Assembly (NCBI RefSeq): GCF_036267815.1
Contig: NZ_DATAVI010000065.1
Location: forward strand, 20,383-84,382
Source: Nocardioides sp.
GTDB taxonomy: Bacteria > Actinomycetota > Actinomycetes > Propionibacteriales > Nocardioidaceae
Reading direction: 5' to 3'
DNA: 64,000 bases
Numbering within the stretch: the first letter of the stretch is position 1; every line of letters starts with the position of its first letter. The notes under the pieces were generated by a model. It saw nothing but the letters and a program-made list of their open reading frames with translations, was not told the origin of the DNA and did no database searches. The translations under genes and the position numbers were made by a program. This document shows positions 3,241 to 42,811 of this stretch, one piece after another.

Positions 3241-3257
3241 CCGATCCACGGGGGACC

Positions 3258-3359
3258 GAGGTCGCACCGGCATGCTGGGCGCACCTCGAGCGGCTGCAAC
3301 GCAGCCGGCGTGCGCGCATCGCGGCGCGCAGCAGGCGGGATTGATCAGCGCTTCCCTAG
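3258..3359. mobile_element. Partial (right-half) copy of the 164-bp CTAG-ended MITE
   Basis: Aligns by eye with the right half of 40958-41121 and the reverse complement of 41949-42112; ends TTGATCAGCGCTTCCCTAG. Confidence 0.8.
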
Positions 3360-4267
3360 GGGTAGCGGATGCCGGTCGCTGCCTCGCTGAGCTCCCACAG
3401 GCGTCGCGCGGTCTCGGGGTCGCGCGCCAACGGCGTGCACCCCACGACGGCGGGTGGACCGTAGGCCTGGCCCGGCCCCGAGGGGCCGCAGTACGTCGAG
3501 CCGGGGAGGTCGGCGGTGGCGGCCATCAGGGTCGGCCACGCACCGGCCGCGGGGGACTGCGCGACCCGGCGGTTGACCGCATCCAGGATCGAGGCGACGC
3601 CGCCGCGGGGCCTGCCGAAGCGTCCGTTGGCGACCAGGTGCGTGCCGGCGTAGCCCGGGTGTGCGGCGAGCGCGGTCACCTCGATGCCGGCGGCCACGAG
3701 TCTGCGGTCGAGCTCGAACGTGAACAGCAGGTTGGCCAGCTTCGTGCGGGAGTAGGCAGGCCAGCGCCGGTAGCGCCGCGGCTGCTCCCGTGGGTCGCCG
3801 AGGGGGGCACTCCTGGCGAGCCGGTGCATCTGGCTGGACACGGTGACCACCCGCCCTCCCGCCCGGACCCGTGGCAGCAGCAGACCGGTGAGCAGGAAGG
3901 GGCCGAGATGGTTGGTCGCCAGCTGGCTCTCGAAGCCGTCCTCGGTGGCGGAGTACGGCGGAGCCATCACCCCGGCGTTGTTGACCAGGATGTCCAGCGG
4001 CTCGGCGAGCTCCTCGGCGGCGCGGCGTACCGAGCCCAGTGAGGCGAGGTCGACGACGAGCCGAGCCAGATCAGCGGAGGCCACCTGCTCGCGTACGGCG
4101 TCCTCGGCCTCGGCGAGCCGGTCCGGGTTGCGACCCGCCAGGACCACGCGGGCGCCGGCACGCGCGAGCTCCAGAGCCGTGTGATGTCCGATGCCGCCGA
4201 GGCTCACGCCGGTGACCAGAACCGTGCGCCCCGTCTGGGCCGGGATCTCCGAGACTGTCCAGGTCAC
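3356..4267 (-). CDS. Short-chain dehydrogenase/reductase (retinol-DH/protochlorophyllide-reductase-like)
   Basis: TGVSLGGIG Rossmann motif, NNAGVM, YSRTK catalytic YxxxK. Confidence 0.9.
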   Translation of the reverse strand: MTWTVSEIPAQTGRTVLVTGVSLGGIGHHTALELARAGARVVLAGRNPDRLAEAEDAVREQVASADLARLVVDLASLGSVRRAAEELAEPLDILVNNAGVMAPPYSATEDGFESQLATNHLGPFLLTGLLLPRVRAGGRVVTVSSQMHRLARSAPLGDPREQPRRYRRWPAYSRTKLANLLFTFELDRRLVAAGIEVTALAAHPGYAGTHLVANGRFGRPRGGVASILDAVNRRVAQSPAAGAWPTLMAATADLPGSTYCGPSGPGQAYGPPAVVGCTPLARDPETARRLWELSEAATGIRYP

Positions 4268-38747: not shown

Positions 38748-40420
38748 TGGTCTCGACAAGCTCGACCAACGACAGACTGCCCATCCATGCCCCGCATGGC
38801 ACCGAGCTGTCCGCCAAGTCCTGGCAGACCGAGGCGCCGCTGCGGATGCTGATGAACAACCTCGACCCCGAGGTGGCCGAGCGGCCGGAGGACCTCGTGG
38901 TCTACGGCGGCACCGGGAAGGCCGCCCGCACCTGGCCGGCGTACGACGCGATCCTGGCCAGCCTGCGCGACCTGGAGGACGACGAGACGCTGCTCGTGCA
39001 GTCTGGCAAGCCGGTCGGGATCATGCGGACCAACGAGTGGGCGCCCCGGGTGCTGATCGCGAACTCCAACCTGGTCGGCGACTGGGCCAACTGGGAGGAG
39101 TTCCGCAAGCTCGACGAGATGGGCCTGATCATGTACGGCCAGATGACGGCCGGGTCGTGGATCTACATCGGCACCCAGGGGATCCTCCAGGGCACGTTCG
39201 AGACGTTCGCCGCCGTGGCCGACAAGCGCTTCGGCGGCACGCTGGCCGGCACGATCACGGTCACCGCGGGGCTCGGCGGCATGGGCGGGGCGCAGCCGCT
39301 CGCGGTCACCATGAACGACGGCGTCGCGATCTGCATCGACGTCGACCAGTCGCGGATCACCCGGCGCATCGAGCACCGCTACCTCGACGAGCAGGCCGAC
39401 TCGCTGGCGGACGCGGTACGCCGCGCGGTCGAGGCCCGCGACGCCAGGCGGCCACTCTCGATCGGCGTGCTCGGCAACGCCGCGGAGCTGCTGCCCGCGC
39501 TGCTGGAGATGAAGGCGCCGATCGACATCGCCACCGACCAGACCTCCGCCCACGACCCGCTGTCGTACCTGCCGGTCGGCGTTCCCTTCGAGGACTGGCA
39601 CGACGCCGCCGACAAGGACCCGAAGGGGTTCACCAAGGACGCCCAGGCCTCGATGGCCGCCCACGTGCGGGCGATGGTGGAGCTCCAGGACGCCGGCGCC
39701 GAGGTCTTCGACTACGGCAACTCGATCCGCGACGAGGCCCGCAAGGGCGGCTACGACCGGGCCTTCGAGTTCCCCGGCTTCGTGCCGGCCTACATCCGGC
39801 CGCTCTTCTGCGAGGGCAAGGGCCCGTTCCGCTGGGCGGCCCTCTCGGGCGACCCCGCCGACATCGCGGCCACGGACCGCGCGATCCTCGAGCTCTTCCC
39901 CGACAACGACCGGCTCCGGAAGTGGATCACCATGGCCGGGGAGCGGGTCCACTACCAGGGCCTGCCCGCGCGGATCTGCTGGCTGGGCTACGGCGAGCGC
40001 CACCTCGCGGGTCTGAAGTTCAACGAGATGGTCCGCTCCGGTGAGCTGAGGGCGCCGATCGTGATCGGTCGCGACCATCTCGACTGCGGGTCGGTCGCCT
40101 CGCCGTACCGCGAGACCGAGGCGATGCTCGACGGCTCGGACGCGATCGCCGACTGGGCGGTCCTCAACGCCCTGGTCAACACCGCCTCCGGAGCGTCGTG
40201 GGTCTCGTTCCACCACGGCGGCGGGGTCGGGATGGGCCGCTCGCTGCACGCCGGCCAGGTCTGCGTCGCCGACGGCACCGACCTGGCGGCGGCGAAGATC
40301 GAGCGGGTCCTGACCAACGACCCCGGGATGGGCGTCATCCGGCACGTCGACGCCGGCTACGACCGGGCGGTCGAGGTCGCCGAGCAGCGCGGCGTTCGCA
40401 TCCCGATGGCCGACGCCTGA
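38747..40420 (+). CDS. hutU: Urocanate hydratase
   Basis: [32 protein letters not shown]. Confidence 0.97.
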
Positions 40421-40550
40421 GCCGGTCCAGGTCCAGGCGGACCCGCCGGTTCGCGGGCGACTGTCAGGTGCCAGACAGCCAGGAGCGCTCGATGCGGGGC
40501 AGGCTCCTGCTCTCGCCGCGCCGCGGCGTCCACCGAGCCGAGGAGTAGCC

Positions 40551-40961
40551 ATGAGCCGCATCGCCCGCCGCATCGTCGGAACCGTTGTCGCCGTTGTCGC
40601 CGTTGTCGCCGTCGTCGCCGGGACGGTGGCGCTCGGGGCGCCGGCCCAGGCCGACGTGTCGGCATCGATCGCGTGGTACGACGGTCCCGACTACGCGGTC
40701 ATCCAACTGGACCAGGCTGCGCTCGAAGGGGTCCTCAACTACTCCGACGGCCTGGAGTACGGCGTCGACGACCTCGCCAACCAGATCACCGACTACATCA
40801 ACGGGAAGCGCCTGGACCGCCACTACGACACCGGCCTCGCGCACGGCGACTTCCTCCGGTTCGAGATCGACTGCGTGCACCACCGCACGCGCAATCCCGT
40901 CCAGATCATGGTGTACGCCGACCTCAGCTACGGCTGCGGCACCTACGGGCCCGAGGTCTAG
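40551..40961 (+). CDS. Small secreted protein of unknown family, paralog A
   Basis: RBS GAGGAG; Sec signal ending AQA; GVDDL and VYADLSYGC motifs shared with B and C. Confidence 0.85.
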   Translation: MSRIARRIVGTVVAVVAVVAVVAGTVALGAPAQADVSASIAWYDGPDYAVIQLDQAALEGVLNYSDGLEYGVDDLANQITDYINGKRLDRHYDTGLAHGDFLRFEIDCVHHRTRNPVQIMVYADLSYGCGTYGPEV

Positions 40962-41121
40962 GGAAGTGCTGATCAATATCGCCGTCGCGAGCGTCGCGAC
41001 GCCTGTGCGATGGCAAGCCGCGGTCGCGACGGCAGGCTGGGTGCACGTCGAGCGGCTGCCACGCAGCCGGCGTCCGCGCATCGCGGCGCGCAGCAGGCCG
41101 GACTGGTCAGGGCTCCCCTGG
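40958..41121. mobile_element. 164-bp MITE with ~19-bp terminal inverted repeats CTAGGGAAGTGCTGATCA
   Basis: Left TIR intact, right TIR decayed (ACTGGTCAGGGCTCCCCTGG); the CTAG supplies the stop of paralog A. Confidence 0.85.
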
Positions 41122-41395
41122 TGCCGCGGGCACCGAGTCATCGAACGGTTGCGCGACGCCGAGCCGCGCACGTCGCTGCGTCGACATCGCCTGGATGCCG
41201 GGGTCGCCCGTGCACTCCCGCGCACCCCAGGGTGTGCGCCGACCTCGCCTGCGGCCGCGGAACCGCTGGCTGGTGCTGCCCAGCAAACGGAGACGGTCGA
41301 CCCGCTGTGTCAGGAGCGCGACGGCGACCCGACTGCCGGCGGGGCAGGCTCGTGCTCGTGCCGCAGAGAGTGGCCCGTAGAGCCGAGGAGAGTCC

Positions 41396-41794
41396 ATGAA
41401 CCGCATCGCCTGCCGGATCGCCACCATCACGGTCACCGCGGTCTCTGCCCTGGCCGCCGTGCTGGCCTTCGGGTCGCCGGCCCACGCTGACCCGACGGCA
41501 ACTGCCACCTTCACCTGGATGGGAGACGGCGCCGACTACGCCGTCGTCCAGCTGAACGAGGAGGCCGTGAGGTCGGCCACCGACTACGACGCCGGCCTCG
41601 GATGGGCCGTCGACGACCTCTGTGGCCAGATCACCGACGTCCTCAACGGGCATCGTCAGTCCAGGGGCTACACGGTCGGACTCGCGACGAGCGACTGCAT
41701 CGCGATCTGGCGCCACTGCGTGGCGATCCGTTCGAACAACCGCGTGCAGTTCAGCGTGTTCGCCGACCTCACCTACCGGTGCGGCCAGTACTAG
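41396..41794 (+). CDS. Small secreted protein of unknown family, paralog B
   Basis: RBS GAGGAG; signal ending AHA; four Cys in the mature part. Confidence 0.85.
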   Translation: MNRIACRIATITVTAVSALAAVLAFGSPAHADPTATATFTWMGDGADYAVVQLNEEAVRSATDYDAGLGWAVDDLCGQITDVLNGHRQSRGYTVGLATSDCIAIWRHCVAIRSNNRVQFSVFADLTYRCGQY

Positions 41795-41952
41795 TGCGTC
41801 TCCCGATCGCGCGCGCCTGCTGCCCGGGATCTCCCATCGGAGCTGGCTGCGGTGTCAGCGCTCGTCGGCCTCCAGCCCGCCTTCGCGCCGCCGCCTTGCC
41901 AGATCGGCGCGAAGTCCCGCTCGCTACGGCGCCGAGACGGTCGCGCAACTAG
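41791..41952. mobile_element. Decayed MITE copy abutting the next copy through a shared CTAG
   Basis: Shares GCTGGCTGCG, GCCTTGCC and CGCTCGCtACGGCGCCG with 41949-42112; bounded by CTAG at both ends. Confidence 0.65.
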
Positions 41953-42112
41953 GGAAGCGCTGATCAGTCCCGTCTGCTGCGCGCCGCGATGCGGGCACGC
42001 TGGCTGCGTTGCAGCCGCTCGACGTGCGCCCGGCATGGCGTCGCGACCGCGCCTTGCCGTCGCACACCCGTCGCGGCGCTCGCGACGGCGCCGTTGATCA
42101 GCACTTCCCTAG
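41949..42112. mobile_element. Intact 164-bp MITE, inverted relative to the 40958 copy
   Basis: CTAGGGAAGCGCTGATCA ... TGATCAGCACTTCCCTAG. Confidence 0.9.
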
Positions 42113-42300
42113 CGTCCGCGCCCGTCCACTCGCGCTCTCCCGCCCAGACGCAGAGGGGCAGCACCAGGGCCTCGGGGGGATCGCCCCGCGGCCAGGTTCG
42201 TGGTGACTGTCAGGCGGAGGACAGCGGCAGACCCCGGGTGCCGGGCAGGCTCCTACCGACGCCGTACCTGCGGCGCCGACACAGAACCCGAGGAGGAGCC

Positions 42301-42693
42301 ATGAGCCGCATCGCCCGCCGCATCGCCGGCACCGTCGTCCCCGTCGTCGCCGCCGTTGCCGCGCTCGTGGCGTTCGGGGCACCCGCGCAGGCCGCGGCCA
42401 CCGCGTCGCTCGCCTGGCAGGACGGCCCGGACTTCGCGATCATCCAGCTGAACCCGGAGGCCGTGGACGCCGTCGCCTGGTACAACGTCGTCGGCCAGCC
42501 TGGCGTCGACGACCTGTGCAACCAGATCGACGGCGTGGTCAACGCCAAGCGGTTCGACAAGGGGTACGCCACCGGCCTCGACCTGGGGATGTGCGTCGGG
42601 TTCATGAAGGACTGCGTGGCCAAGAGGAGCAACGATCGGGTCCAGATCGACGTGTACGCCGACCTGACCTACCGGTGCAGCACCTACGCCTGA
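42301..42693 (+). CDS. Small secreted protein of unknown family, paralog C
   Basis: RBS GAGGAGG; signal ending AQA; four Cys; VYADLTYRC. Confidence 0.85.
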   Translation: MSRIARRIAGTVVPVVAAVAALVAFGAPAQAAATASLAWQDGPDFAIIQLNPEAVDAVAWYNVVGQPGVDDLCNQIDGVVNAKRFDKGYATGLDLGMCVGFMKDCVAKRSNDRVQIDVYADLTYRCSTYA

Positions 42694-42811
42694 GACCGGC
42701 CCCGAGCCCGGGGCTGTGGCCTCGCCGACTGTCTCGTGGGGCCTCCTGCCACAAGCCCGTTGACCCTGCCAGGCAGGGGGTTCGGCGCCGACCGGTGGCG
42801 CGAGGCCCGAC

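What the first reader, a model, noticed from the sequence alone, without database searches (positions are those of the whole stretch)
40958..42112. New 164-bp MITE whose CTAG ends coincide with stop codons and which inserts into its own ends
Seen: four copies (3258-3359 partial, 40958-41121, 41791-41952 decayed, 41949-42112 intact) with the TIR CTAGGGAAG(T/C)GCTGATCA. In three cases the terminal CTAG is the TAG stop of the adjacent gene (SDR at 3356, paralog A at 40961, paralog B at 41794). Two copies share one CTAG. Established: several IS families (e.g. some IS5/IS701 members) target CTAG/TA, and CTAG is rare in GC-rich genomes. Inference: a non-autonomous element that is harmless because it lands at gene ends. 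Its internal hairpins could act as 3' stabilisers or terminators, and recombination between copies could have driven the gene triplication.
Basis: partly seen in the sequence, partly recalled or inferred. Interest (0 to 1): 0.66.

Follow-up and report, generated by a model that had tools for sequence, protein, structure and literature searches.

The report
IS5-type MITE with conserved hairpin core
The repeat is a real 164-bp gene-less jumping element that uses the ends of an IS5 insertion sequence and lands in the rare word CTAG, often exactly on TAG stop codons, which it regenerates; it also carries a folded, strand-specific core of unknown role that similar elements with unrelated ends share in many bacteria.

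Summary
The finding is real, but partly misread.

**What it is.** The window lies in a Nocardioides draft genome (71% GC). The 164-bp element has about 14 full-length copies, 3 truncated copies and about 11 deletion-derived minis of 49-87 bp. Its ends (GGAAGYGCTGATCA) and its 4-bp duplication match an autonomous IS5-family element found in another Nocardioides genome. The duplication is CTAG, once TTAA/TTAA, and TTAG/TTAG in a related derivative. This genome has no such transposase.

**Stop codons.** All three stop-codon coincidences are confirmed. Genome-wide, 10 of 17 full or truncated copies touch a stop, against roughly 23% expected for non-genic CTAG sites.

**The "decayed copy".** It belongs to a sister MITE family with different IS5-type ends. 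The intact copy landed in that element's duplicated CTAG.

**Gene triplication.** MITE-driven triplication is not supported.

**The main surprise.** The central ~85-115 nt is a conserved hairpin with compensatory changes and strand-specific G·U and G·A pairs. It occurs in 85 of 151 Nocardioides species, inside many unrelated inverted repeats, and in many other phyla. It is absent from Rfam, and I found no description of it. Its function is unknown.

The parts
41949..42112 (.). Intact type-1 MITE, 164 bp including both CTAG duplications (41949-41952 and 42109-42112). TIRs are at 41953-41966 and 42095-42108.
   Evidence: It is 94.5% identical to the family consensus. It folds as a long hairpin: -103.9 and -109.7 kcal/mol on the two strands, z about -7.
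41986..42070 (-). Conserved core module of the intact copy. The core-sense strand reads GCUGGC-AA-GGCG...CAA-CGCC-GCCAGC.
   Evidence: Covariance model R1, 54.4 bits (this copy was in the seed). Strand asymmetry is shown.
41791..41952 (.). Older copy of a sister MITE family (type-2, GGCCGTGTCTCCC-like ends, now decayed) with the same core. Its left CTAG (41791-41794) holds the TAG stop of paralog B. Its right CTAG is the one shared with the type-1 copy.
   Evidence: R1 hit at 41829-41912 (-), 34.9 bits, E=4.7e-6; this copy was not in the seed.
40958..41121 (.). Type-1 MITE copy, inverted relative to 41949-42112. Its left CTAG (40958-40961) holds the TAG stop of paralog A. Its right TIR and duplication have decayed (TGGTCAGGGCTCCC|CTGG).
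   Evidence: (inverted repeat I1: 184 nt, 84% complementary). R1 hit at 41000-41084 (+), 34 bits.
3257..3359 (.). Truncated type-1 copy (103 nt). It keeps one TIR (3342-3355) and the CTAG at 3356-3359, whose CTA is the stop codon of the SDR gene on the minus strand.
3356..4267 (-). Short-chain dehydrogenase/reductase-like ORF (303 aa; TGxxxGxG, NNAG and YxxxK motifs). Its stop codon lies in the MITE's flanking CTAG.
   Evidence: ORF and motifs read from the translation. No family search was run on it.
40551..40961 (+). Paralog A, a small secreted protein of no recognised family. Its stop codon is in the CTAG of the type-1 copy.
41396..41794 (+). Paralog B. Its stop codon is in the CTAG of the type-2 copy.
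42301..42693 (+). Paralog C. No MITE follows it.

Best explanation
[quoted passage not shown] An IS5-family, IS5-group DDE transposase mobilises it in trans.

How it works:
- The enzyme recognises the outer ~14-20 bp (GGAAGYGCTGATCAA...).
- It inserts at YTAR sites, almost always CTAG, and duplicates those 4 bp.

Why it sits on stop codons (inferred from the counts):
- CTAG is about 9-fold depleted in this 71% GC genome and is nearly excluded from reading frames, so a large share of usable targets are NNC-TAG stop codons.
- The duplication restores the stop, so such insertions do not change the protein and are tolerated.
- Each insertion adds a new CTAG, so elements pile up side by side. Here a type-1 copy sits in the CTAG made by an older type-2 copy.

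Activity (inferred):
- The family is probably no longer active in this genome. No cognate transposase is present and copies are 4-13% diverged from the consensus.

The core:
- The centre of the element does not come from the IS. It is a conserved, strand-specific hairpin module that MITEs with many different IS-type ends share.
- The minis that lack most of the core still multiplied, so it is not needed for mobilisation.
- My best guess, held weakly, is that it acts as a structured RNA or single-stranded DNA module affecting how the element persists or what it does to neighbouring transcripts, rather than serving the transposase.
For: Copy number and ends:
- About 14 full-length, 3 truncated and about 11 mini copies are dispersed over many contigs.
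- The flanks vary together: CTAG/CTAG in most copies, TTAA/TTAA at C88, and TTAG/TTAG on an 808-bp derivative in G009.

Autonomous partner:
- G112 contig C104 encodes a complete 326-aa transposase (NF033581 transpos_IS5_4, 312 bits against a cut-off of 140), followed by ...GTTGATCAGCGCTTCC|CTAG.
- G009 holds a truncated copy and two internally deleted derivatives with the same ends.

Minis:
- Minis with identical deletion junctions occur 2-4 times each, so they transposed after the deletion.

CTAG and stop codons:
- The genome has 1221 CTAG against 10,847 expected from base composition.
- Of 1184 CTAG outside MITEs, 210 are stops, 266 lie in gene bodies and 708 are elsewhere.
- MITE flanks are stops in 10 of 17 full or truncated copies, and in 16 of 32 when minis and sister copies are included (p about 1e-3 against 0.23).
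- Orthologues of two flanking genes stop at the same codon position.

Core:
- The 115-nt core is shared while the ends differ, both in relatives and in this genome.
- On a 48-sequence alignment, 82% of cells are paired against 63% in shuffles, and the covariation score is 0.47 against 0.14.
- G·T outnumbers A·C 90 to 38, and G·A outnumbers C·T 90 to 26.
- The covariance model hits 85 of 151 Nocardioides species, whereas the type-1 end occurs in 11 of 151.
- The model finds no match in the IS5 copies or their deletion derivatives.
Against: - No IS5_4 transposase and no full-length IS with these ends exists in this 98-contig draft.
- The left end of the G112 IS is lost at a contig edge.
- No true empty site could be shown. 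All available relatives are at least 13% diverged in the flanks.
- The IS and the MITE share only about 14-20 terminal bases, so the MITE is not a simple deletion derivative.
- How the same core acquired many different end pairs is unexplained.
- The stop-codon statistics rest on a crude GC3-based gene caller (2996 calls).
- Transposition itself was not observed.
Confidence: 0.85

Rival explanations
1. It is an IS630/Tc1-mariner-type MITE that targets CTAG but duplicates only the central TA, so the outer C and G belong to the element.
For: IS630 itself inserts at CTAG and duplicates TA (established knowledge). Most copies are flanked by the palindrome CTAG, which cannot separate a 2-bp from a 4-bp duplication.
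Against: The C88 copy has TTAA on both sides and the G009 derivative has TTAG on both sides. A TA-only model would need matched changes in both element tips. The protein next to the same end sequence is an IS5-family transposase, not IS630.
Confidence: 0.04
2. The copies are REP/REPIN-like palindromes spread by a RAYT (Y1/HUH) transposase, or IS200/IS605-type palindrome-associated elements.
For: The element is a long hairpin with a conserved tetranucleotide at its foot and a strand-asymmetric structure.
Against: This genome has no Y1 transposase (PF01797), while the same search found it in 6 control genomes. The flanking 4-mers vary together like a duplication. The ends equal those of a DDE IS5 element.
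Confidence: 0.01
3. Stop-codon landing is adaptive rather than passive. Copies are kept at gene 3' ends because the hairpin or core serves the host as a terminator, a 3'-end stabiliser or an RNase processing site.
For: - Enrichment at stops is about 2-fold over other non-genic CTAG sites.
- The fold is very stable.
- RNase III cleaves Correia hairpins, and ERIC elements at 3' ends change mRNA decay (review PMC10969869).
- The core is conserved well beyond what the transposase needs.
Against: - There is no T-tract terminator.
- Purifying selection against promoter-side insertions would produce the same enrichment.
- The core-sense strand is mostly antisense to the gene whose 3' end it abuts: 13:4 in this genome and 8:4 in four other genomes. 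That is the opposite of what a read-through 3'-UTR function of that strand predicts.
- No expression data could be obtained.
Confidence: 0.2
4. The shared core reflects only common descent of one MITE lineage, with inverted-repeat symmetry maintained at the DNA level. It has no function of its own.
For: Any inverted repeat shows apparent 'covariation'. The minis that lack the core still multiplied. The distribution is patchy, as expected for a mobile element: 14 of 300 other Actinomycetota genomes.
Against: - The core is better conserved than the transposase-binding ends, which are completely replaced between families.
- The asymmetric bulges (AA and CAA) are conserved.
- The excess of G·T and G·A on one strand is not expected from a symmetric DNA palindrome, and 50 of 57 representatives fold better on the same strand.
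Confidence: 0.3

Closest known systems
IS5 of E. coli and IS5-group insertion sequences (NCBIfam NF033581), and MITEs derived from them
   Same: The termini start with GGAAG. The target is YTAR (mostly CTAG) with a 4-bp duplication. A 326-aa DDE transposase lies next to the same end sequence in Nocardioides G112.
   Different: The MITE shares only about 14-20 terminal bases with the IS. Its interior is not IS sequence but a conserved hairpin module. No autonomous copy is present in this genome.
Correia repeat-enclosed element (CREE/NEMIS) of Neisseria
   Same: It is also a ~150-bp long-hairpin MITE, often at gene boundaries, whose transcripts are RNase III substrates. A Correia copy fetched here contains the short words GGCGTTGCC and CGCCTT(T/G)TCC, which resemble the two core blocks.
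   Different: The TIR is different (TATAGTGGATTAA...) and the duplication is TA. The two words lie about 100 nt apart rather than 30-60 nt. The covariance model of the core found no match in the Correia copy at E<=1. Homology is therefore not shown.
ERIC/IRU and other enterobacterial hairpin MITEs
   Same: They are non-coding imperfect palindromes of 120-170 bp that are co-transcribed at gene ends and affect mRNA decay (PMC10969869).
   Different: There is no sequence similarity. ERIC duplicates TA, and no conserved core shared across different end families has been reported.
REP/REPIN elements with RAYT transposases
   Same: They are intergenic hairpins with a conserved tetranucleotide at the foot, and they persist for a long time.
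   Different: REPs are 20-40 nt, carry GTAG or CGTC tags and depend on a Y1 transposase, which this genome lacks. They make no target duplication.

Membership tests
MITE mobilised by an IS5-family (IS5-group) transposase | Short, non-coding and multicopy | tested here: met
   The element is 164 bp. There are about 14 full-length, 3 truncated and about 11 mini copies on many contigs. No conserved ORF was seen.
MITE mobilised by an IS5-family (IS5-group) transposase | Terminal inverted repeats identical to those of an autonomous IS | tested here: met
   In G112 C104, a 326-aa NF033581 transposase is followed by GTTGATCAGCGCTTCC|CTAG. Only one IS end is visible because the contig starts at the gene. 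G009 remnants carry the same ends.
MITE mobilised by an IS5-family (IS5-group) transposase | 4-bp YTAR (CTAG) target-site duplication | tested here: met
   Most copies have CTAG/CTAG. Variant flanks that change together are TTAA/TTAA (C88) and TTAG/TTAG (G009).
MITE mobilised by an IS5-family (IS5-group) transposase | Filled versus empty sites showing insertion | tested here: inconclusive
   Relatives are at least 13% diverged. Only conservation of the stop position could be shown at two loci.
MITE mobilised by an IS5-family (IS5-group) transposase | Mobilisation by the transposase in trans | not testable with these tools
   This needs a transposition assay. The only indirect evidence is that deletion derivatives with identical junctions were amplified.
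Correia/CREE | TIR TATAGTGGATTAA... and TA duplication | tested here: not met
   The ends are GGAAGYGCTGATCA and the duplication is 4 bp.
Correia/CREE | Homologous interior | tested here: not met
   Model R1 finds no match in Correia copy L153 at E<=1. Only two 8-9-nt words are shared.
REP/REPIN-RAYT | A cognate Y1 (RAYT) transposase gene in the genome | tested here: not met
   PF01797 has 0 matches in this genome, while the same search found it in 6 of the 14 control genomes.
Any Rfam RNA family | Match to a curated covariance model | tested here: not met
   There is no match at E<=1 in window 40500-42800. There is none at the motif in 18 loci from other phyla at gathering scores.
Cross-phylum 'conserved-core' hairpin MITE group (unnamed; seen repeatedly in this scan) | A central module GCUGGC-AA-GGCG-[variable stems]-CAA-CGCC-GCCAGC inside long inverted repeats next to CTAG/YTAR | tested here: met
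   Pattern scan, flank inspection, model R1 hits in the window, and structure counts.

The most novel reading that the evidence does not exclude
The unit under selection may be the ~85-nt core rather than the transposon. It would be an undescribed, strand-specific structured RNA (or single-stranded DNA) module with two conserved bulges (AA and CAA), G·U and tandem G·A pairs. MITEs with the ends of many different CTAG-targeting insertion sequences, across bacterial phyla, would have kept or re-acquired it repeatedly. It would then have a molecular function of its own, such as binding a universal host factor, acting as a processing signal, or catalysis. Because it is mostly oriented antisense to the abutting gene, the active strand may be harmful when it lies inside an mRNA.
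Probability: 0.35. Interest if true: 0.85.

Novelty: new variant of a known kind. Interest (0 to 1): 0.6.

Why it matters
As an IS5-derived MITE the element is ordinary, although the family is undescribed in Actinomycetota and a 2024 review of prokaryotic MITEs does not mention Actinobacteria.

Two points go further:

- **A simple rule for harmless insertion.** A transposon that duplicates the palindrome CTAG can sit exactly on a TAG stop codon, on either strand or on both at once, without changing any protein. In GC-rich genomes this makes stop codons its natural habitat and builds arrays of elements that share CTAGs.
- **A conserved core that the transposase does not need.** The same folded, strand-specific core lies inside MITEs with many unrelated ends, in 56% of the Nocardioides species sampled and in distant phyla. 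Ends that the transposase needs are exchangeable, yet the part it does not need is conserved. That points to an undescribed functional nucleic-acid module, or to an unknown mechanism of MITE formation. Both can be tested directly.

Tried and rejected
1. **Core inserted into a mini-MITE.** Rejected. The 49-87-bp minis keep the first 12 nt and the last bases of the core, so they are deletion products at short GCGCC-type microhomologies.
2. **Core taken from the parent IS.** Rejected. Model R1 finds nothing in the G112 IS5, the G009 remnant or the 709- and 808-bp derivatives.
3. **Snap-back copying of an adjacent IS end by the hairpin.** Not supported. The linkers between TIR and core are not complementary.
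4. **Sigma-54 promoter, integron attC site, 5S rRNA or SRP RNA resemblance of the conserved blocks.** Spacing or sequence does not fit when read by eye, and Rfam gives no match.
5. **Strict empty sites.** Searching 14 flank pairs in 10 related genomes gave only diverged orthologues.
6. **Literature searches** by keywords and by the core sequence. They returned nothing relevant; hits to CGCCTTGCCAGC were sequencing-adaptor primers.
7. **The degenerate transposase on contig C68.** No sign that it is the partner: I saw no GGAAG-type end in the printed sequence around it. The remnant at C95:124-780 belongs to the type-2 end family, not type 1.

Full report

The window is contig C65:20383-84382 of a 4.16-Mb, 98-contig genome with 71.4% GC.

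The 18-nt end CTAGGGAAG(Y)GCTGATCA occurs 4 times in the window, against 0.02 expected. The copies at 40958-41121 and 41949-42112 are 84% complementary over 184 nt, so they are inverted relative to each other.

Whole-genome BLAST and end searches give about 14 full-length copies, 3 truncated copies (83-105 nt) and about 11 minis of 49-87 bp. Full copies are 87-96% identical to a 164-bp consensus. The element folds into one long hairpin: -104 and -110 kcal/mol on the two strands, z about -7.

- SDR-like ORF 3356-4267 (-)
- paralog A, 40551-40961
- paralog B, 41396-41794

**2. What kind of element is it?**

The four flanking bases are a target duplication, not part of the element. Most copies have CTAG on both sides. 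The C88 copy has TTAA on both sides, and an 808-bp relative in genome G009 has TTAG on both sides.

Termini that begin GGAAG, together with a 4-bp YTAR duplication, are the signature of IS5 (established knowledge).

The type-1 end occurs in 11 of 151 sampled Nocardioides species, with many copies only here and in G052.

An autonomous partner exists:
- G112 contig C104 starts with a complete 326-aa transposase (NF033581 transpos_IS5_4, 312 bits against a cut-off of 140). It is followed by ...GTTGATCAGCGCTTCC|CTAG.
- G009 has a truncated copy and two internally deleted derivatives with the same ends.
- In the 709-bp derivative, the two duplicated CTAGs are the stop codons of two convergent genes.

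This genome has no such transposase and no Y1/RAYT gene.

The minis are deletion derivatives. Identical junctions recur in 2-4 copies, so they moved after the deletion. The ends alone are therefore enough for mobility.

**3. Stop codons**

The genome has 1221 CTAG, against 10,847 expected from base composition.

I used a crude GC3-based gene caller (2996 calls). It classifies the 1184 CTAG outside MITEs as 210 stop codons, 266 in gene bodies and 708 elsewhere.

A flanking CTAG is a stop codon in 10 of 17 full or truncated type-1 copies, and in 16 of 32 when minis and sister copies are included. Against a background of 0.23 this gives p about 1e-3.

Most of the effect is passive. C-TAG cannot occur in frame, and the other two frames need rare codons, so stop codons make up a large share of available targets. 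The duplication also restores the stop. The remaining ~2-fold excess could come from selection against promoter-side insertions or from a benefit at 3' ends. These data cannot separate the two.

At two loci the orthologous genes of other species stop at the same codon position (TGA or TAG), so the insertion did not change protein length. True empty sites could not be obtained, because all relatives are at least 13% diverged.

**4. The "decayed copy" and the shared CTAG**

The stretch 41791-41952 is a real element. It aligns much better with own-genome copies in C59 and C39, which carry GGCCGTGTCTCCC-type ends, than with type 1.

That end type is the terminus of an IS5-family element of another subgroup (NF033580). 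A remnant of it lies at C95:124-780.

The likely order of events is:
- A type-2 element inserted on the stop codon of paralog B.
- A type-1 element later landed in the second CTAG that this insertion had created.

**5. Gene triplication**

The three paralogs are 47-57% identical as proteins and were not found in 40 relatives. They are far more diverged than the MITE copies. The two type-1 copies around paralog B are inverted relative to each other. MITE-mediated recombination therefore does not explain the triplet.

**6. The core**

In related genomes, BLAST matched only positions 26-141 of the element. The flanks there are different inverted repeats. The same is true within this genome and within single other genomes. 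Those hold many end types around the same core, mostly at a total length of 160-168 bp.

Copy numbers per genome run from 6 to 91 in the five genomes checked. The module nearly always lies inside long inverted repeats next to CTAG-like words.

Structure of the core:
- On the strand reading GCUGGC-AA-GGCG...CAA-CGCC-GCCAGC, 50 of 57 representatives fold more stably than on the other strand.
- On a 48-sequence alignment, 82% of cells pair, against 63% in shuffles and 31-50% with slid partners. The covariation score is 0.47 against 0.14.
- In pairs not fixed by the search pattern, G·T outnumbers A·C 90 to 38, and G·A outnumbers C·T 90 to 26.

A covariance model built from this alignment gives these results:
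- It finds all copies in the window, including the type-2 copy that was not in the seed.
- It hits 85 of 151 Nocardioides species.
- It hits 14 of 300 other Actinomycetota genomes.
- It does not hit the IS5 copies or a Correia element.

Rfam has no match, and I found no description in the literature.

The core-sense strand tends to be antisense to the gene whose 3' end it abuts: 13:4 in this genome and 8:4 in four other genomes. This is suggestive only.

**7. Verdict**

The element is an IS5-mobilised MITE (confidence 0.85). It is a new family of a known kind.

Earlier notes of this scan describe the same core in other genomes. I reached it independently and tested one of their leads, the Correia link, with a negative result.

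No canonical promoter or terminator was found in 40400-42800.

Noticed in passing
window 41205-41264: The spacer between paralogs A and B holds a 60-nt stretch that is 75% identical to the 3' coding end of paralog A (...GTGTGCGCCGACCTCGCCTGCGGCCGCGG...). It looks like the remnant of a fourth, decayed paralog.
   Followed up: no
window 40583-40611: The signal-peptide region of paralog A contains a 9-nt tandem repeat (GTTGTCGCC x3, encoding VVA repeats) that paralogs B and C lack.
   Followed up: no
L003 (G000 contig C95:1-2214): A nest of insertion sequences. An IstB-like (IS21 helper) gene end is interrupted at CTAG by an IS5-family element (NF033580; end GGCGTGTCTCCC). That element is in turn cut by an IS30-like transposase gene at about position 800.
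   Followed up: partly
L147 (G009 C2:212568-213276): A 709-bp internally deleted IS5 derivative with type-1 ends sits between two convergent genes. Both duplicated CTAGs serve as their stop codons, so the original site was a single CTAG shared by two overlapping stops.
   Followed up: partly
L030, L035, L039, L066 and about a dozen other Burkholderiales loci: In Comamonadaceae-type genomes the same central module lies in a conserved ~170-nt context (GGTGAGAGCGCTACGCACCCGAT ... CTCGGGCGCGTCCAACTGCGGTTTCTAGG) with no obvious terminal inverted repeat. Ottowia caeni has 8 copies.
   Followed up: no
L153 (G276 C1:412001-412160): A single Correia-type element lies in a 2.9-Mb Burkholderiales-order genome. 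It carries GGCGTTGCC and CGCCTTTTCC about 100 nt apart, but the core covariance model does not match it.
   Followed up: partly
window 40551-42693: The three small secreted paralogs have no Pfam family above threshold and no homologue in 40 related genomes. They appear to be a lineage-specific, cysteine-containing secreted protein family downstream of hutU.
   Followed up: partly
L169-L208 (G109, G148, G097, G085): Single Nocardioides genomes hold ten or more different inverted-repeat end types around the same core. Total length is nearly constant at about 160-168 bp, which suggests a constraint on overall hairpin length.
   Followed up: partly
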